Positions 15,052 through 20,043 of a DNA stretch of 63,181 bases are shown here, in pieces. Numbering within the stretch: position 1 is the first letter of the stretch; every line of letters starts with the position of its first letter. Made by a program: the position numbers and the translations under genes. Source of the DNA: a virus (lineage: Duplodnaviria > Caudoviricetes); the IMG/VR virus record IMGVR_UViG_3300020042_009799, positions 1 through 63,181 of that record; one strand, 5' to 3'. A model generated the notes under the pieces. The model did no database searches, had not been told where the DNA came from, and saw only the letters and a program-made list of their open reading frames with translations.

Positions 15052-15450
15052 TTAGAGGATGTCGTTCAGTTCTCCGATGGCGTCGTACAGGAGAGGAGTT
15101 ACTTCGCTGTCCGGGTGAGCAAAGGCGAGTGCAGCCACCAGATTTTCACGAATCGAGAACAGCTTGGATTCCAAGCAATCGCACTCCTCGTCTTCGTCAG
15201 GCTCACACTCGTGGGTGAGGATCGCCTCAACCTGTTCGTCATTAAGTGACGTATGGGCGAAGACATTGGTATCACTAACGCGGCGGTATCCGAACGCATG
15301 GCGCAGCTGGTCGCTGGTAATTTCGTTGTCGCAAGCTTCTTGGGCTTCATCAGCGGAGATCGCTGTAAGGTGGTCAGCCGAATCAGGAATGCTGAGGGTA
15401 GATCCGTCGCGGGGGCCTCCGAGGAATAGGCAGTCAGTAGTGTCGTTCAT
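15052..15450 (-). CDS. Hypothetical acidic protein
   Basis: LFLGGPRDG N-terminal motif; in operon. Confidence 0.65.
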   Translation of the reverse strand: MNDTTDCLFLGGPRDGSTLSIPDSADHLTAISADEAQEACDNEITSDQLRHAFGYRRVSDTNVFAHTSLNDEQVEAILTHECEPDEDEECDCLESKLFSIRENLVAALAFAHPDSEVTPLLYDAIGELNDIL

Positions 15451-15467
15451 GGTAGGGTAGGGTAGGT

Positions 15468-17858
15468 TCAGGTTCCGTGTAGGGCTTCCAGATTGGAAAG
15501 CTTCTTGTGGATCGCTTTCAAGACGTACTCTTCAATCGTGCCGCTGGCAATCAAAATCTTTTGGAGCGCGTCACTTTTTGAATTTGCCCGGTGGATTCGA
15601 CCGAGCACCTGCTTGAAAGTCTTGGCGTTGAAGGAGAGGGAGATCAGCGAGACTCGCGGAAAAGTGCCGTGCGTGTCCTGCAATCCGTCGATGCCCGTGC
15701 CGCCTGCTTCAGAGTTCAGGACGATGACGCGGAGCTTGTCGTCGCGGAAGCGGTCCACGTAGTCCTGCCTCTCCTCGGCGTTCTGTCCGCCGTTGACGAA
15801 GCCGACTTCCATCTTGAGCGTAGCTTCTAGTGCAGGCACCAAGGCGTCCAGCGTCTCGCGGAAGTTCACGAAGATGACCACCGACTTGTGCTCCTCGATC
15901 ATGTCCTTGGTCATCTCGACGATGTCCGGGACTTTCAGGGCCTCAGTCAGCTGGCGGGCGCGGAGCATGCGGGTCAGCAGCATGGTCACCTTGGCGTCTT
16001 TGTCCCTCGCCTTGGCGCGATCCTCCTTGTCAAAGGTGTCCATGTGATCCATCAGCTCGTCGATCACCTCGGTGGTGACCCCCGCGTCCTCGTAGAACTT
16101 CTTGATCTTGGAGACCGCTCCGAACTCGATCGGGTCTTCAAGAACCCAGTTCTCGCGGAAGGCTTCCGGCAAGTCGCGTTCAGTGATCCTGACAGCGCGG
16201 TCCTTGTAGAGGCGATCGTGGAGAGGCAGGAGCTTCTTGACGGGTCCGGGCCTCCAGTTCTTCCACTGGTCTTGAAAGCAGCCGAAGGACTTCATCCACT
16301 TGTCCCAGTTGGGGAGCAGTTCGGTGCCACGGTTCAAGCCATGCAGTTCCAAGGCGTAGCCGATCGCCCGCATCTCGGTCGGGTCTTCCGCCGCAGTCGC
16401 GGACAGGAGCAGCGTGCGCACGCCCTGCATCTTCGCCGAGATCAGCAGCTGGCTGCTCTGGGTAAACGGCGACTTGCAGTTGTGAACCAATACACCATTG
16501 GCGTAGAAGCACTCCGCTTGCTTTACAGAAATGTCGTAGCAGTTGTGCTCTCCCGGTACCGGGGTTACTTGGAGAACTCTAGCACCCGTGAAACGCACGC
16601 GCTTAAATCTTCCGCCACTTCGGAATTCTTGATACGGAGTACTTTCCAACCCTCCTCGGCTAGAAGCCGGTCTTTTTTCAGATCCCTCTCCCTCGCTTTG
16701 AGCGTGTTGTGAGACAACCCGTCCACTTCTACAGCGATCTTCTTCTCTGGAAAAGCCAAGTCCACTAGCATGAGGGGCCATTCCGCGTGGTGCCCGCGGC
16801 CCCACACCACAAATTCTGGGACCCACGAAGAACCGAGAGCCTTCAGTAACTTCTCCTGTGGTACGGTCATGCCAGTCCCGTTCCCACCCGTCAGGTGCGG
16901 TCGGGAAACCCCAGTTAGTGCCTTGGATACCTTTTTCCGAGTCTCGGGAGACTTCATGGGGTTGCTGTCCCCATTCATCTTTGCGTACCGCGCGGCAAAC
17001 CCCGGGTGGGTTGCTGATAGGTGCTTCATGTTTTCGGACAGGCGCTTCTTCTCTTCCGGAGACGCCGCTGCGTGCATGGCTTTTGAGGCACATGAGCGGG
17101 AGCAGAAATTCCGAGTTCCCATTTTTGAAGGCTTCCCCCGAAAAGTTTTGCCACAGCATGGGCACTCCTTCGAGGCTACTCTGCGTCTGGTTTTTGCAGA
17201 GCACGGGCGGCATCGAGTGCTCCTTCCGCTCTGATCCTTTAGGGGCACCCCGCAATCCGTGCAGGCACAGGTAGTCTGTGTCCTTGAGCTTGCCTGCTTC
17301 AACCCATCCTCTTTGTGTGAACAACTTGTGGTCATGCGTGCATTCTACACTACCACCAGCAAAGGATACAAGGACAACGTGTTTAATCCCTGTGAACGCA
17401 CTAGACGTTACGCGCTTGGGGCCTAGTGGGGTAAGGACAAAATCGTCCGCCTTGACGTCCTCGATGGGCCTGAGACTCCCGTCAGACATGGTGACCAGTG
17501 CCCCTTCCTTGACGCAGCGTTGGCATTCGTCAAACACCACCAGCGTGTCTTCTGGCAGATCCCAGCGCATGATCTTTTTCGTCACCTTCTTGAGGTGCGC
17601 CGACCCGTTACGGATCTTCTCGTAGTTCGTCACGAACACCGGCTCAATGCCCCACTCGGCAAGTTCACGCTTCCACGAAGGGAGGGTGGCCTTGGGGGCG
17701 ATCACGGCGATCGGGCAGTGGAGCTTCCTCGCCACGGCGCACGCCATGACGGTCTTGCCCGAACCGGTACAGGACGAGTTCAACGCGCTTCCGCGCTCGA
17801 TGATCGAGGATACCAGAAGCTTGACTGCCTTCTCTTGGGCTGGGAATAGGGTCTTCAT
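15468..17858 (-). CDS. Superfamily 2 helicase precursor containing an intein
   Basis: Q motif, TGSGKT, FDECQR, LSAT, GGTGIDGL, QVLGRIHR; interrupted just after motif II. Confidence 0.92.
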   Translation of the reverse strand: MKTLFPAQEKAVKLLVSSIIERGSALNSSCTGSGKTVMACAVARKLHCPIAVIAPKATLPSWKRELAEWGIEPVFVTNYEKIRNGSAHLKKVTKKIMRWDLPEDTLVVFDECQRCVKEGALVTMSDGSLRPIEDVKADDFVLTPLGPKRVTSSAFTGIKHVVLVSFAGGSVECTHDHKLFTQRGWVEAGKLKDTDYLCLHGLRGAPKGSERKEHSMPPVLCKNQTQSSLEGVPMLWQNFSGEAFKNGNSEFLLPLMCLKSHARSGVSGREEAPVRKHEAPISNPPGVCRAVRKDEWGQQPHEVSRDSEKGIQGTNWGFPTAPDGWERDWHDRTTGEVTEGSRFFVGPRICGVGPRAPRGMAPHASGLGFSREEDRCRSGRVVSQHAQSEGEGSEKRPASSRGGLESTPYQEFRSGGRFKRVRFTGARVLQVTPVPGEHNCYDISVKQAECFYANGVLVHNCKSPFTQSSQLLISAKMQGVRTLLLSATAAEDPTEMRAIGYALELHGLNRGTELLPNWDKWMKSFGCFQDQWKNWRPGPVKKLLPLHDRLYKDRAVRITERDLPEAFRENWVLEDPIEFGAVSKIKKFYEDAGVTTEVIDELMDHMDTFDKEDRAKARDKDAKVTMLLTRMLRARQLTEALKVPDIVEMTKDMIEEHKSVVIFVNFRETLDALVPALEATLKMEVGFVNGGQNAEERQDYVDRFRDDKLRVIVLNSEAGGTGIDGLQDTHGTFPRVSLISLSFNAKTFKQVLGRIHRANSKSDALQKILIASGTIEEYVLKAIHKKLSNLEALHGT
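16479..17516 (-). mobile_element. Intein, 346 aa
   Basis: Begins CVKEGALVTMSDG..PIEDV, block B CTHDH, block F CYDISV, ends FYANGVLVHN followed by Cys+1; removal restores DECQR-CKS. Confidence 0.92.
16565..17335 (-). CDS. Zn-finger plus Vsr/DUF559-like endonuclease nested in the intein in a shifted frame
   Basis: CxxC pairs, CPCCGKTF..FCSRSC, NPMKSPETRKKVSKAL (NUMOD3-like), VDLAF..KIAVEVDG..H...D..KD..L...GWKVLRI. Confidence 0.85.
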   Translation of the reverse strand: MTTSCSHKEDGLKQASSRTQTTCACTDCGVPLKDQSGRSTRCRPCSAKTRRRVASKECPCCGKTFRGKPSKMGTRNFCSRSCASKAMHAAASPEEKKRLSENMKHLSATHPGFAARYAKMNGDSNPMKSPETRKKVSKALTGVSRPHLTGGNGTGMTVPQEKLLKALGSSWVPEFVVWGRGHHAEWPLMLVDLAFPEKKIAVEVDGLSHNTLKARERDLKKDRLLAEEGWKVLRIKNSEVAEDLSACVSRVLEFSK

Positions 17859-18136
17859 TCTACTTCAAGAATCCAGCGATCATTCGCATTGACGATCGCC
17901 GTGATTTTCTTCTTCGGTGCTTCACGGTTGAAGTCATCTAGATGATGGCTCACGCTGACAAAAGGCCCACCCGGAGGATCAATGAACCGATAGACTCGCC
18001 CTTCTGGCGTATCCTCGAAACCGCACCGAGAATACTCGCGACACTCTCCAACCAGCTCGACGAAGTAGGTTCCGTCTTCCTGTTCGTGGAAGGTCATGGA
18101 GTGGCCGTGGCGACCTCTGATTGGGTAGGAGTTCAT
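17855..18136 (-). CDS. Hypothetical protein
   Basis: ATGA-coupled; FIDPPGGPF motif. Confidence 0.7.
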   Translation of the reverse strand: MNSYPIRGRHGHSMTFHEQEDGTYFVELVGECREYSRCGFEDTPEGRVYRFIDPPGGPFVSVSHHLDDFNREAPKKKITAIVNANDRWILEVE

Positions 18137-18450
18137 AGTGTACTCCGCTCCTCCCTGAGCAACCCCTTCATGAGAATCGCATAGTTGACCAAGTCATCGC
18201 AAGCATCGTCCACGGATTCCCCATCCACGGCGCAGACTCCGTTCTTGATGAAGGCTCTTACGCGCTGGAGCTTGTCGGTCATTCGCAGGATAATTCCAGT
18301 GACCGGGTGAAGACCAAAGCATTCGGCAATCCGGAAGTTGGCAAAGGGGTCGCCGTCGCCTCCGGAGTAGTCCATGTTTTTCTGCCGCATGATCTCACGG
18401 CATCGGGTGGTGGTCTCTTCGTGGAGAGACAGAAGGTTGTCTAGGGTCAC
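18133..18450 (-). CDS. Nucleotide modification-associated domain protein (Nmad1/DUF1599-like)
   Basis: KNMDY, DPFANF, RMTDKLQR, ESVDD..DLVNY. Confidence 0.7.
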   Translation of the reverse strand: MTLDNLLSLHEETTTRCREIMRQKNMDYSGGDGDPFANFRIAECFGLHPVTGIILRMTDKLQRVRAFIKNGVCAVDGESVDDACDDLVNYAILMKGLLREERSTL

Positions 18451-19410: not shown

Positions 19411-20043
19411 TTAGTAAGCCCATTTCGCATCTCCGAGGATTTCGTCCGAGTCCGACCACCATTCGTCCCATTGAGCATTGGTCGCAACGTCCCAGTCCGG
19501 GATTGTCGCGGCGGCATCTTTGCCCGTGAGGGAGACAGGTAACCACTTGATCCGGTTGTTCGGGTAGATGGCGATCTGTCCATTGGTGAGTCGGATGACG
19601 TTTCCTTCTTTGTGCTCTTCGAGTAGCTCGGAGTCGCCGACATCGAAGATTCCTTGCGCCTGACCTTCCGGCAGGAAGTCGAGCGTGAACCAGTAGTGTC
19701 CACCGATAGGGGGGATGCCCTTGCCGAGGTTGACCAGCACGGGTACGTCGTTGAGCTGGTCCTTGCGCCACATCTCAATCGACCCAGACAAGCACTCCCA
19801 CATCTGAATCTTGTGGAGGGGTAGCGCGGTTTCGCCGTCTTCTGGCTCAAACCAGAACAAGCATTGCGGCGGGACTTTGTCGAAACAGGCCGCAAACTTA
19901 TCGACCCACACTTGGAAGCAGAGGGGTCGGTTCCGCATCGCCCTAACCGAGACGAGCCATGCTGGTTCGAAACGGTCGGCGGGACCCCCGAACGCATCGC
20001 AGCGGACGAAGACTCTTGTCTTAGGGCAGTTTACGTTTCTCAT
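19411..20043 (-). CDS. Conserved-looking hypothetical phage protein
   Basis: YWFTLD, EHKEGN, NGQIAIYPNNR. Confidence 0.75.
   Translation of the reverse strand: MRNVNCPKTRVFVRCDAFGGPADRFEPAWLVSVRAMRNRPLCFQVWVDKFAACFDKVPPQCLFWFEPEDGETALPLHKIQMWECLSGSIEMWRKDQLNDVPVLVNLGKGIPPIGGHYWFTLDFLPEGQAQGIFDVGDSELLEEHKEGNVIRLTNGQIAIYPNNRIKWLPVSLTGKDAAATIPDWDVATNAQWDEWWSDSDEILGDAKWAY

What the first reader, a model, noticed from the sequence alone, without database searches (positions are those of the whole stretch)
16479..17516. Intein whose endonuclease is a separate gene in a shifted frame (about 770 bp dual-coding)
Seen: the helicase carries a 346-aa intein with intact splicing blocks (C1, TxxH, block F, HN-C). 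Its in-frame middle of about 250 aa looks like low-information shadow sequence with no nuclease motif. The same DNA read one base out of phase (16565-17335) encodes a coherent Zn-finger/NUMOD3-like/Vsr-DUF559 endonuclease. Its ATG lies within the block B codons (an alternative TTG follows AGAGGA) and its stop falls just before block F. Established: intein homing endonucleases are normally in-frame between blocks B and F. Inference: this is a mobile intein that makes its nuclease as an independent protein by internal initiation or a frameshift, which decouples homing from splicing while both frames stay stop-free. Precedent may exist and needs a literature check.
Basis: partly seen in the sequence, partly recalled or inferred. 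Interest (0 to 1): 0.88.

Follow-up and report, generated by a model that had tools for sequence, protein, structure and literature searches.

The report
Helicase intein with overlapping endonuclease gene
A phage helicase gene carries a self-splicing protein insert (intein) whose middle also encodes, one base out of step, a complete DNA-cutting homing enzyme; this double coding is real, kept by selection and typical of a large family of phage inteins, though the general layout was first described in 2025-2026 preprints.

Summary
The helicase gene (15468-17858, minus strand) holds a 346-aa class-1 intein (16479-17516) inserted at DECQR^CKS. Closely related phages and four metagenome runs carry the same gene lacking exactly these 1038 bases.

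- **Second frame:** the +1 frame holds an ORF (16565-17335, or 17302 from a TTG preceded by AGAGGA). It encodes a Zn-finger plus Vsr-like/DUF559 (EDxHD-type) endonuclease. Its model is confident (pLDDT 86.9).
- **Helicase frame:** over the same DNA it has no predicted structure (pLDDT 34-53).
- **Not an assembly error:** the HE (homing endonuclease) ORF lies +1 to a continuous intein in 4 of 4 named phages examined. The same holds for 101 of 119 distinct IMG/VR loci and 25 of 51 genome-contig loci.
- **Selection:** across 67 non-redundant loci the host frame has 0 stops where synonymous shuffles expect 574. Substitutions concentrate at the nuclease's third codon positions.
- **Own start:** a start codon, often with a Shine-Dalgarno, is conserved just before the first CxxC.

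Best reading: a composite mobile element whose endonuclease is made by internal initiation. Expression and cleavage are inferred, not shown.

Out-of-frame intein endonucleases were reported by Gosselin et al. 2025 and Phillips et al. 2026, but with other nuclease families or the other strand. I rate this a new variant of a known kind. This scan has already noted the same layout on other DNA.

The parts
15468..17858 (-). SF2 helicase gene (796 aa precursor; 450 aa after splicing)
   Evidence: ORF. Pfam Helicase_C 8.3e-12 and ResIII 2.7e-4. PHROG phrog_62 DNA helicase 6.9e-47.
17517..17858 (-). N-extein, aa 1-114, ending in motif II DECQR
   Evidence: Colinear with the intein-less allele L006. 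96% identical to P0002.
16479..17516 (-). Class-1 intein, 346 aa (helicase aa 115-460)
   Evidence: This is exactly the 1038 nt absent from L006/L007 and from contigs of runs X1, X2 and X4. C1, block-B His and the terminal Asn are invariant in 63 of 63.
17253..17516 (-). N-terminal splicing lobe (intein residues 1-88; blocks A and B, with TxxH at 17328-17339)
   Evidence: AlphaFold2 pLDDT 93-97 over residues 1-80. 68% identical to P0002.
16587..17252 (-). Helicase-frame 'shadow' linker (intein residues 89-310): translated but unstructured
   Evidence: pLDDT 34-53. No Pfam nuclease or other domain. Only 35% identity to P0002, although the exteins are 93-96% identical.
16479..16586 (-). C-terminal splicing lobe (intein residues 311-346; blocks F and G, ending HN)
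   Evidence: pLDDT 81-96. H459-N460 are conserved.
16476..16478 (-). +1 Cys codon (C461), first residue of the C-extein
   Evidence: Nearly invariant column C461. Junction shown.
16565..17335 (-). +1-frame ORF for the Zn-finger / NUMOD-like / Vsr-like (DUF559, EDxHD-type) homing endonuclease: 256 aa from ATG 17335, or 245 aa from TTG 17302; stop TAA at 16565-16567
   Evidence: ORF. Pfam DUF559 2.7e-10, above cut-off. The family profile hits PDB 3hrl at 3.6e-13 and 3r3p (I-Bth0305I) at 9.8e-5. AF2 pLDDT 86.9. Foldseek top hit is 3r3p_B. The invariant catalytic-core residues are present.
17300..17312 (-). Likely translation start of the endonuclease: AGAGGA (17307-17312), 4-5 nt spacer, TTG (17300-17302). 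It is encoded within the R-G-W-V codons at the end of block B.
   Evidence: An SD core 4-11 nt upstream of a start is found in 40 of 67 loci, against 17.6 expected.

Best explanation
The locus is a composite selfish element inside a phage replication helicase. It combines two parts.

**The intein.** A class-1 (Cys...TxxH...HN/Cys) intein is inserted at DECQR^CKS in helicase motif II. The helicase mRNA is translated straight through the intein in frame 0. Between the two splicing lobes this gives about 220 residues of unstructured 'shadow' peptide, which acts only as a linker. The intein then splices itself out and leaves a 450-aa helicase.

**The endonuclease.** An EDxHD/Vsr-like homing endonuclease gene is written over the intein's middle in the +1 frame of the same strand. 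Ribosomes starting internally make it as a separate protein of about 27-28 kDa. The likely start is TTG 17302 behind AGAGGA; the alternative is ATG 17335. The protein has an N-terminal Zn-finger and NUMOD-like DNA-binding modules plus a C-terminal Vsr-fold catalytic domain. It is expected to cut the intein-less helicase allele at or near DECQR^CKS during co-infection, so that repair copies the intein plus nuclease gene into that allele (homing).

**Selection on the two frames.** Selection on helicase function keeps frame 0 free of stops. This needs only synonymous choices in the nuclease codons, namely avoiding NNT before AAN, AGN or GAN. Selection on mobility keeps the nuclease intact.

**What is shown:** the anatomy, the conservation of the layout, stop avoidance, frame-specific purifying selection, and the presence/absence polymorphism.

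**What is inferred:** internal initiation, splicing, cleavage and homing.
For: **1. Layout.**
- One search gives the ORFs.
- One search shows the +1 ORF open for 259, 215, 263, 246 and 250 codons in the window and in phages phi673, K391, MR14 and Vibrio phage 24.
- In HMM-based typing of all fetched loci, both intein lobes lie in one ORF in frame HE+2 in 4 of 4 phage records. The same is true for 74 of 80 loci in the first IMG/VR scan, 46 of 62 in the second scan and 25 of 51 genome contigs.
- After removing duplicates this is 101 of 119 IMG/VR loci.

**2. Stop avoidance.** Over 67 non-redundant loci the host frame has 0 stops against 574.5 expected. The control frame has 1086 against 1003.9. 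The window has 0 against 7.04, and none of 1000 shuffles was stop-free.

**3. Natural controls.** Two split and two free-standing relatives carry 11-26 stops in that frame.

**4. Selection frame.** Differences per site at nuclease codon positions 1/2/3 are 0.131/0.109/0.308 in pairs at 80-90% nt identity. On the same nucleotides, amino-acid identity is 0.82 in the nuclease frame and 0.63 in the host frame. For the 70-80% bin the figures are 0.74 and 0.50.

**5. Nuclease identity.**
- DUF559 is above the Pfam cut-off.
- D181, D194, G195, H198, D207 and K210 are invariant in 63 sequences.
- PDB profile hits are 3hrl and 3r3p.
- The model has pLDDT 86.9, with 3r3p_B, 3hrl and 1vsr among the top 6 Foldseek hits.

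**6. Frame-0 middle.** It is unstructured, with pLDDT 34-53, between lobes at 93-97 and 81-96.

**7. Own start.**
- An ATG is present in 22 of 22 loci that have 12 codons or fewer between the upstream stop and the first CxxC, against 6.2 expected.
- An SD is present in 40 of 67 loci against 17.6 expected.
- In 39 of 63 loci the nuclease frame has a stop downstream of block-B His.

**8. Mobility.**
- Intein-less alleles: L006 and L007, and contigs of 4 of 4 runs laid.
- P0002 has exteins 96%/93% identical to the window's. Its intein lobes are only 68%/61% identical and the middle 35%.
- Nuclease and splicing-domain distances co-vary, with Mantel r = 0.635 and 0 of 2000 permutations reaching it.
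Against: - No expression data: no RNA run holds the stretch, and no proteomics or ribosome profiling is available.
- No sigma-70-like promoter was found in 15300-18200, so an independent transcript is unsupported.
- An SD is absent in 27 of 67 loci. In the window the start codon with an SD is a TTG, and the ATG has none.
- The window's nuclease sits on a long branch (1.52 in the quick tree; best identity 42%), so it could be drifting.
- One library protein (P0029, 496 aa) has the N-extein and N-lobe in frame with the nuclease. In-frame forms also exist in 5 of 119 IMG/VR loci. Separate translation is therefore not the only workable solution.
- DNA of the closest intein-bearing relatives (P0002, P0003) could not be fetched. 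Frame-specific selection is therefore shown for the family, not for this lineage.
- The Mantel correlation is partly expected from shared phage ancestry.
Confidence: 0.75

Rival explanations
1. Frameshift fusion. The nuclease is not initiated on its own. A +1 ribosomal frameshift inside the intein N-lobe would give an N-extein/N-lobe/endonuclease fusion that ends before the C-lobe.
For: One library representative (P0029) encodes exactly such a fusion in a single frame, so the fusion protein is tolerated somewhere. In the window only 3 codons separate the upstream +1-frame stop from the ATG, but 27 codons are open before the first CxxC.
Against: In 39 of 63 loci a stop in the nuclease frame lies after block-B His. 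In 22 loci only 5-12 codons are open before the first CxxC, and every one of them holds an ATG, against 6.2 expected. An SD is enriched before these starts, in 40 of 67 loci against 17.6 expected. The listed start regions show no shared slippery motif. Efficient +1 frameshifting is rare in phages (general knowledge).
Confidence: 0.1
2. Dead passenger. The +1 ORF in this window is a no-longer-expressed relic, and the intein persists by vertical descent as a mini-intein with a long junk linker.
For: The window's nuclease is on a long branch. The favoured start is TTG. There is no expression evidence. Homing endonucleases commonly decay after fixation (homing-cycle model, discussed in bioRxiv 10.64898/2026.09.14.751524).
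Against: The ORF is intact over 245-256 codons. All residues invariant across 63 family members are present, and the model is confident. Intein-less alleles are common in related phages, so targets are still available. The other alternative frame accumulates stops at the expected rate (16 against 15.3), so an unselected ORF of this length would not stay open.
Confidence: 0.07
3. Artefact. Two compensating indel errors or mutations have thrown a normal in-frame intein endonuclease out of frame in this assembly.
For: In-frame relatives do exist, in 5 of 119 IMG/VR loci.
Against: The same +1 relation holds in 4 of 4 isolate phage genomes. It also holds in 101 of 119 distinct IMG/VR loci and 25 of 51 genome contigs from independent assemblies. 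The nuclease frame has its own stop upstream and its own start. The in-frame group is a distant subgroup, with HMM scores of 62-67. For comparison, three of the +1 or split relatives typed scored 134, 194 and 237.
Confidence: 0.01
4. True double function. The frame-0 linker peptide is itself functional, for example as a regulatory or nucleic-acid-binding tail of the precursor or of the excised intein, so both frames are under protein-level selection.
For: Frame 0 is always translated. A few columns in the linker are nearly invariant across 63 inteins (L138, L249, Q250, V290). In many relatives the nuclease ORF runs to within 3-8 codons of the intein end, so blocks F and G really are double-coded.
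Against: The linker has pLDDT 34-53 and no Pfam match. Frame-0 identity is much lower than nuclease-frame identity on the same bases. It is 35% identical between two helicases whose exteins are 93-96% identical. The conserved linker columns are what conserved nuclease motifs would project into the other frame.
Confidence: 0.05

Closest known systems
Non-canonical actinobacteriophage inteins (Gosselin, Arsenault, Gogarten; bioRxiv 10.1101/2025.01.02.630785; abstract and sections 8 and 15 read, plus passages)
   Same: These are contiguous inteins whose homing endonuclease is encoded outside the intein/extein frame, between the splicing blocks. The authors propose that a free-standing endonuclease gene invaded an intein. 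A Vsr-like (possibly EDxHD) nuclease is among their types.
   Different: Their Vsr-like nucleases are on the antisense strand. Their only same-strand out-of-frame case is an endonuclease VII-like enzyme in 'frame 3'. Their hosts are DNA polymerase, minor capsid, terminase and thymidylate synthase, not helicase. Here the Vsr-like gene is on the sense strand at +1, in SF2 helicase motif II, and this layout is the majority state of a large family. Their supplementary tables could not be seen and might list sense-strand cases.
Cyanobacterial dnaX intein with an out-of-frame endonuclease (Phillips, DeSimone, Gogarten; bioRxiv 10.64898/2026.09.14.751524; abstract and passages read)
   Same: It has a same-strand overlapping ORF inside a contiguous intein. 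The in-frame middle is disordered while the shifted frame gives a confident model. A Shine-Dalgarno lies upstream, selection is frame-dependent, and intein-plus and intein-minus alleles coexist.
   Different: It is a LAGLIDADG nuclease in the +2 ORF of a cellular gene, and the authors call it a rarity. Here it is an EDxHD/Vsr-like nuclease at +1 in phage genes, found in over a hundred loci.
Fractured genes: split inteins with a Vsr-like endonuclease between the halves (Dassa et al. 2009, PMC2677866; passages read)
   Same: It involves the same nuclease family with Zn-finger/NUMOD-type N-terminal modules. It occurs mainly in phage DNA-metabolism genes. The nuclease 3' end overlaps the downstream intein part. 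Five of 119 IMG/VR loci here are of this split type.
   Different: In fractured genes the host gene is two ORFs joined by trans-splicing. Here the host frame is continuous through the nuclease gene, so splicing is in cis.
I-Bth0305I, prototype of the EDxHD homing endonucleases (Taylor et al. 2011, PMC3239194; passages read; PDB 3R3P)
   Same: It has a Vsr-fold catalytic domain and is 266 aa long with N-terminal NUMOD-like modules. It cleaves the element-free allele next to the insertion site. The family profile here matches 3r3p at E = 9.8e-5, and 3r3p_B is the top Foldseek hit.
   Different: I-Bth0305I sits in a loop of a group I intron in recA, in non-coding context. It is not overprinted on a translated intein.
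ShiLan insertion with a hidden out-of-frame HNH endonuclease in phage methylases (Arsenault et al. 2025, PMC11855218; abstract and section 4.3 read)
   Same: [quoted passage not shown]
   Different: It has no splicing domains, so the insert stays in the protein. The nuclease is HNH. No RBS was found, and the authors propose leaderless initiation.

Membership tests
Class-1 intein (Hint fold) | N-terminal Cys/Ser nucleophile (block A) | tested here: met
   C115 is the first intein residue. It is invariant in 63 of 63 aligned host ORFs.
Class-1 intein (Hint fold) | Block B TxxH | tested here: met
   T174-H-D-H177. H177 is invariant.
Class-1 intein (Hint fold) | C-terminal His-Asn followed by a Cys/Ser/Thr +1 residue | tested here: met
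   H459-N460 then C461. N460 is invariant; H459 and C461 are conserved in at least 90%.
Class-1 intein (Hint fold) | Curated profile match (Pfam Intein_splicing / Hint) | tested here: inconclusive
   The window scores 34.6 bits against a 35.8-bit cut-off, with E = 2e-8. 59 of 63 related host ORFs match at E <= 1e-3. AF2 gives beta-rich lobes at pLDDT 93-97 and 81-96; the model was not compared with solved Hint structures.
Class-1 intein (Hint fold) | Precise in-frame insert in a conserved host motif, with insert-free alleles | tested here: met
   Exactly 1038 nt are absent from L006 and L007 and from contigs of X1, X2 and X4. The site is in helicase motif II.
Class-1 intein (Hint fold) | Protein splicing activity | not testable with these tools
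   Needs expression of the precursor.
EDxHD / Vsr-like homing endonuclease (DUF559 superfamily) | Vsr-type catalytic domain by sequence profile | tested here: met
   Pfam DUF559 scores 40.5 bits against a 20.6-bit cut-off. The family profile hits 3hrl at 3.6e-13 and 3r3p at 9.8e-5.
EDxHD / Vsr-like homing endonuclease (DUF559 superfamily) | Vsr-like fold | tested here: met
   The model has pLDDT 86.9. Foldseek hits are 3r3p_B (prob 1.00, TM-target 0.64), 3hrl (0.70) and 1vsr (0.45). The E-values are weak, 8e-3 to 7e-2, because the match covers only the C-terminal 100 residues or so.
EDxHD / Vsr-like homing endonuclease (DUF559 superfamily) | Conserved acidic/His catalytic residues | tested here: met
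   D181, D194, H198, D207 and K210 are invariant and E192 is conserved in at least 90% of 63 sequences. All are present in the window. Mapping them one-to-one onto E-D-x-H-D is my inference.
EDxHD / Vsr-like homing endonuclease (DUF559 superfamily) | N-terminal NUMOD-type or Zn-finger DNA-binding modules | tested here: inconclusive
   The CxxC...CSxxC and NPM..R.K motifs are conserved. Pfam NUMOD3 gives only E = 0.14, below the cut-off.
EDxHD / Vsr-like homing endonuclease (DUF559 superfamily) | Site-specific cleavage of the element-free allele | not testable with these tools
   Needs an in vitro cleavage assay on the DECQR-CKS allele.
Intein with an out-of-frame (overlapping-ORF) homing endonuclease | Nuclease ORF between the splicing blocks in another frame, with the host frame open through it | tested here: met
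Intein with an out-of-frame (overlapping-ORF) homing endonuclease | Purifying selection on the nuclease frame and relaxed selection on the host frame in the overlap | tested here: met
   Shown at family level. It was not tested in the window's own lineage, because DNA of P0002 and P0003 was unavailable.
Fractured gene / naturally split intein (Dassa 2009) | Host gene broken into two ORFs that carry separate intein halves | tested here: not met
   The window's host frame is continuous. Five of 119 IMG/VR relatives are split.

The most novel reading that the evidence does not exclude
The +1-overprinted layout is not a transitional oddity. It is the ancestral and dominant architecture of intein-associated EDxHD/Vsr-like endonucleases, seen in 101 of 119 sampled IMG/VR loci across helicase, SNF2, clamp-loader and terminase-like hosts.

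On this reading, both other forms derive from it by small mutations. These are the natural split inteins of 'fractured genes' and the rarer canonical in-frame intein-endonucleases.

Three observations point this way:
- All five split loci keep both halves in the same frame (HE+2) as the contiguous form.
- One locus (L195) differs from a contiguous intein by a single stop in the shadow frame.
- A distant subgroup is in frame.

The family would then document in living sequences how inteins gain endonucleases and how split inteins arise.
Probability: 0.35. Interest if true: 0.75.

Novelty: new variant of a known kind. Interest (0 to 1): 0.55.

Why it matters
**Annotation.** Inteins are textbook 'in-frame' elements, and the two preprints that describe out-of-frame endonucleases call them rare. 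For one whole nuclease family, out-of-frame coding on the sense strand is the rule here. These nucleases are invisible to standard gene callers, which keep the long host ORF. Many 'inteins with an unknown middle domain' are probably mis-annotated as a result, and a large pool of site-specific nucleases is hidden.

**Overlapping genes.** The family is a clean natural experiment. One frame is under protein-level selection. The other is selected only to stay open and harmless.

**Split inteins.** The family links contiguous, split and in-frame intein forms. That bears on the origin of the split inteins used in protein engineering.

**This phage.** The practical point is modest: the helicase is intact after splicing, and the extra gene should be annotated.

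Tried and rejected
- **DNA of the closest intein-bearing relatives.** Scans of viral contigs with P0002 and P0003 found no intein-plus DNA. Neither did scans of metagenome contigs with the helicase (nothing) or with alignment A4 (only distant helicases). Lineage-specific dN/dS in the two frames could therefore not be computed.
- **RNA.** No RNA holder was listed.
- **Runs laid.** All four are contigs of intein-less relatives, so they say nothing about the intein's own bases.
- **Internal promoter.** No sigma-70-like site was found in 15300-18200. This simple consensus scan is weak either way.
- **In-frame fusions.** The 'longer' word-index search found none, which is weak evidence. The exhaustive profile search listed 149 of its best 150 hits at 158-329 aa, plus one 496-aa fusion. 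A second IMG/VR scan then did find five in-frame loci, so I dropped an early idea that the family is never in frame.
- **Tree.** The careful search did not finish within the time limit, and only the quick tree was used. It is unrooted, and many forks are open. I draw no order of events from it.
- **Split loci as recent derivatives.** I rejected this for L033 and L045, which carry 15 and 26 host-frame stops, near expectation.
- **Typing by open frame alone.** One search gave 76 of 80. I replaced this with HMM typing of the intein lobes (74 contiguous plus 2 cut by contig ends).
- **Rows dropped before the shuffles.** The 4 loci without an open host frame were treated separately. The 2 loci with a stop near the nuclease N-terminus (L011, L056) were dropped. 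So were 12 near-duplicates above 90% identity. This took 81 items to 79 and then 67.

Full report
**What is at the coordinates.**

The window is a complete 63,181-bp virus record with direct terminal repeats. On the minus strand, 15468-17858 is a 796-aa ORF. It lies in a replication/recombination block next to an exonuclease, a phosphoesterase and a RusA-like resolvase.
- Pfam finds Helicase_C (8.3e-12) and ResIII.
- Intein_splicing scores 2e-8, at 34.6 bits, just under the 35.8-bit cut-off.
- PHROGs gives DNA helicase at 6.9e-47.

A second ORF of 256 aa (16565-17335) starts 523 nt after the helicase ATG, so it is in the +1 frame. It matches DUF559 above the cut-off (2.7e-10) and MTES_1575 below it. 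The NUMOD3 match is only weak (E = 0.14). It also matches PHROG families annotated as HNH or homing endonuclease.

**Intein boundaries and polymorphism.**

An IMG/VR phage (L006) encodes the same helicase at 97% amino-acid identity in 450 aa. Its sequence runs DECQR-CKSPF where the window has 346 extra residues beginning with Cys and ending His-Asn. A second intein-less allele is L007. Laying the Logan contigs of four metagenome runs on the gene gave three contigs, from three studies, that skip exactly 1038 nt (16475/16476 -> 17514/17515). A fourth skips 1170 nt with 132 other letters in between.

Two intein-bearing relatives exist as proteins (P0002, P0003). P0002's exteins are 96% and 93% identical to the window's. 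Its splicing lobes are only 68% and 61% identical, and the frame-0 middle 35%. The intein therefore has a history of its own.

**The same double coding elsewhere.**

A tblastn of the shifted ORF against 50,697 phage records found 40 records. All 30 listed rows lie under genes annotated as helicase, P-loop NTPase or 'coil containing protein'. I opened four of them: Corynebacterium phage phi673, Vibrio phages K391 and 24, and Pseudomonas phage MR14. In all four the match is at +1 to the annotated helicase. It forms an open stretch of 215-263 codons inside an intein.

A five-sequence nuclease alignment (A1) was used to scan IMG/VR. It gave 349 tblastn-confirmed stretches, of which the best 80 were fetched. 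A further scan used the nuclease of a split locus and fetched 62 loci. A genome-contig scan fetched 51. I built HMMs of the N-lobe, the C-lobe and the nuclease, and typed every locus by the frames in which these parts lie.

| Set | Loci | Contiguous intein in frame HE+2 (nuclease at +1) | Split, both halves in HE+2 | In-frame | No intein lobes | Cut by contig end |
|---|---|---|---|---|---|---|
| Named phage records | 4 | 4 | 0 | 0 | 0 | 0 |
| First IMG/VR scan | 80 | 74 | 2 | 0 | 2 | 2 |
| Second IMG/VR scan | 62 | 46 | 5 | 5 | 2 | 4 |
| Genome contigs | 51 | 25 | 0 | 0 | 25 (most of them ORFs under 210 aa) | 1 |

After removing identical nuclease ORFs, the two IMG/VR scans hold 119 distinct loci:
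- 101 are contiguous at +1.
- 5 are split.
- 5 are in-frame.
- 4 have no intein.
- 4 are cut by contig ends.

Host-frame ORFs of 63 non-redundant loci match Intein_splicing in 59, Helicase_C in 47, ResIII in 38, SNF2 in 12 and DNA_pol3_delta2 in 4. C1, block-B His and the terminal Asn are invariant in all 63. This excludes an assembly error and shows that the window is one member of a large family.

**Is the open host frame more than chance?**

For each of 67 non-redundant loci I shuffled synonymous codons within the nuclease ORF 1000 times.
- The host frame has 0 stops in total against 574.5 expected.
- The third frame, used as a control, has 1086 against 1003.9.
- For the window the figures are 0 against 7.04, and none of 1000 shuffles was stop-free.
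- In 66 of 67 loci fewer than 5% of shuffles were stop-free.

Natural controls agree. The two split and two free-standing relatives have 11-26 stops in that frame, against 18-31 expected. The host frame starts one base before the nuclease frame. A stop there therefore needs a nuclease codon ending in T followed by AAN, AGN or GAN, so it can be avoided by synonymous choice alone. This last point follows directly from the sequence.

**Which frame is under protein-level selection?**

On a codon alignment of the 67 nucleases, differences per site at nuclease positions 1/2/3 are 0.131/0.109/0.308 for pairs at 80-90% nt identity (6 pairs). They are 0.203/0.165/0.414 at 70-80% (12 pairs). On the same bases, amino-acid identity is 0.82 against 0.63, and 0.74 against 0.50, for the nuclease frame against the host frame. 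The alignment was built on the nuclease frame, which favours it, but that matters little at these identities.

- Ten columns are invariant in 63 nucleases, including D181, D194, G195, H198, D207 and K210.
- The nuclease profile hits PDB 3hrl (a DUF559 protein, 3.6e-13) and 3r3p (the I-Bth0305I catalytic domain, 9.8e-5).
- The AlphaFold2 model of the window's 245-aa protein has mean pLDDT 86.9.
- Its best Foldseek hits include 3r3p_B, 3hrl and E. coli Vsr.
- The frame-0 intein modelled with 63 homologues has pLDDT 93-97 for residues 1-80 and 81-96 for residues 311-346. It has only 34-53 for residues 91-300.

**How is the nuclease made?**

- In 39 of 63 loci a stop in the nuclease frame lies downstream of block-B His.
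- The stretch between that stop and the first CxxC is 5-73 codons long, with a median of 18.
- In the 22 loci where it is 12 codons or fewer, all 22 contain an ATG, against 6.2 expected (joint log10 probability about -12).
- A Shine-Dalgarno core 4-11 nt upstream of such a start occurs in 40 of 67 loci, against 17.6 expected.

In the window, the ATG at 17335 lies within the TxxH codons and has no SD. The TTG at 17302 follows AGAGGA by 4-5 nt, and I favour it. These features point to independent initiation, not a +1 frameshift, but they are not proof. No sigma-70-like promoter was found nearby, and no RNA data exist. One library protein (P0029) fuses the N-extein and N-lobe in frame to the nuclease, so other solutions occur.

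**Anatomy across the family.**

The nuclease ORF ends 3-29 codons before the intein's last residue, with a median of 8. The window, at about 29, is the most detached. In most members the nuclease C-terminus is therefore truly double-coded with blocks F and G. Nuclease distances and splicing-lobe distances co-vary (Mantel r = 0.635; 0 of 2000 permutations reach it). This fits co-transmission as one unit, although shared phage ancestry contributes.

**Split and in-frame relatives.**

Four split loci (L033, L045, L154, L190) form one established lineage in an SNF2-like gene. The N-half stops about 100 nt into the nuclease ORF, and the C-half starts shortly before the nuclease stop. This is the 'fractured gene' arrangement of Dassa et al. 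2009. A fifth locus (L195) differs from a contiguous intein by one stop in the shadow frame. All five keep both halves in the frame used by the contiguous form. Five loci (L207-L209, L211, L212) carry a distant relative of the nuclease in frame within a canonical intein. The quick tree places the split pair and the free-standing pair among the +1 forms. It is unrooted and weakly supported, so the order of events remains open.

**What is known.**

Five full-text searches were made. They found:
- **Dassa et al. 2009** (PMC2677866, passages): Vsr-like endonucleases between split-intein halves.
- **Taylor et al. 2011** (PMC3239194, passages): I-Bth0305I, the EDxHD prototype. It is 266 aa with NUMOD-like N-terminal modules, forms a homodimer and cuts the intron-less allele.
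- **Gosselin et al. 2025** (bioRxiv 10.1101/2025.01.02.630785; abstract, sections 8 and 15, passages): antisense LAGLIDADG, antisense VSR-like and 'frame 3' endonuclease VII-like nucleases in actinophage inteins. The hosts are DNA polymerase, minor capsid, terminase and thymidylate synthase.
- **Arsenault et al. 2025** (PMC11855218; abstract, section 4.3): an out-of-frame HNH in a non-splicing methylase insert.
- **Phillips et al. 2026** (bioRxiv 10.64898/2026.09.14.751524; abstract, passages): the cyanobacterial dnaX intein with a LAGLIDADG nuclease in the +2 ORF, described as a rarity.

None of the texts I saw reports a sense-strand out-of-frame Vsr-like/EDxHD nuclease in a contiguous intein. 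None reports that this is the majority state of a family either. Supplementary tables were closed and could hold such cases. Gorbalenya 1998 is known to me only through these preprints' citations.

This scan itself has noted the same layout before on other DNA. 107 notes in at least 87 genomes hold the search words, and eight follow-ups that I read reached the same conclusion.

**Verdict.**

The element works like a homing intein whose endonuclease is a separate, overprinted gene. It meets the tested defining features of a class-1 intein, apart from a curated Pfam score just under its cut-off, and it meets the tested catalytic-domain features of an EDxHD/Vsr-like endonuclease; the N-terminal DNA-binding modules are inconclusive. 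It is not a fractured gene. It is a new variant of a recently described kind. It matters mainly because it shows that the 'rare' architecture is common, stable and hidden from annotation. Expression, splicing, cleavage and homing remain to be shown.

Noticed in passing
L207:1921-3064, also L208, L209, L211, L212 (and L210, cut by its contig end): A distant subgroup carries a Zn-finger/NUMOD/Vsr-like endonuclease in frame within a canonical intein (host motif ...HPN^CFID...VVHN^CRC). In-frame, +1 and split arrangements of this nuclease superfamily therefore all exist.
   Followed up: partly
L195:1780-3318: The intein host frame is interrupted by a single stop codon (2740-2742) in the middle of the shadow region, while the +1 endonuclease ORF is intact. 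This could be a very recent fracture, a pseudogene or a sequencing error.
   Followed up: partly
P0029 (496 aa, protein library representative): The N-extein (helicase...LDE^CF) and the intein N-lobe are in the same frame as the endonuclease, and the protein ends at the nuclease stop. Its DNA could not be fetched.
   Followed up: no
P0004 (820 aa) and P0005 (1137 aa): These terminase-like proteins carry inteins whose C-terminal block is almost the same as the window's. Their middles look like shadow sequence. They may hide out-of-frame or antisense endonucleases; P0005 also has a LAGLIDADG intein.
   Followed up: no
L011:3369-4016 and L056:3462-4190: In these two contiguous +1 loci the endonuclease frame has a stop close to its N-terminus, which leaves 188- and 208-aa ORFs without the first Zn finger. 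This may be decay or an alternative start.
   Followed up: no
window 16415-17586 against run X3: One metagenome contig lacks the intein and also replaces 132 letters around the insertion site, so the homing-site region itself varies among intein-less alleles.
   Followed up: no
window 16476-16478 and 17520-17531, against L006: The intein-plus and intein-minus alleles differ by synonymous changes in the codons flanking the insertion site: both Cys codons are TGC against TGT, and Pro is CCG against CCA. This could reflect co-conversion or target-site immunity.
   Followed up: no
window 19411-20043 (-): A 210-aa ORF next to the replication block matches a PHROG family annotated as ferredoxin (auxiliary metabolic / host takeover class) at 2.1e-32.
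   Followed up: no
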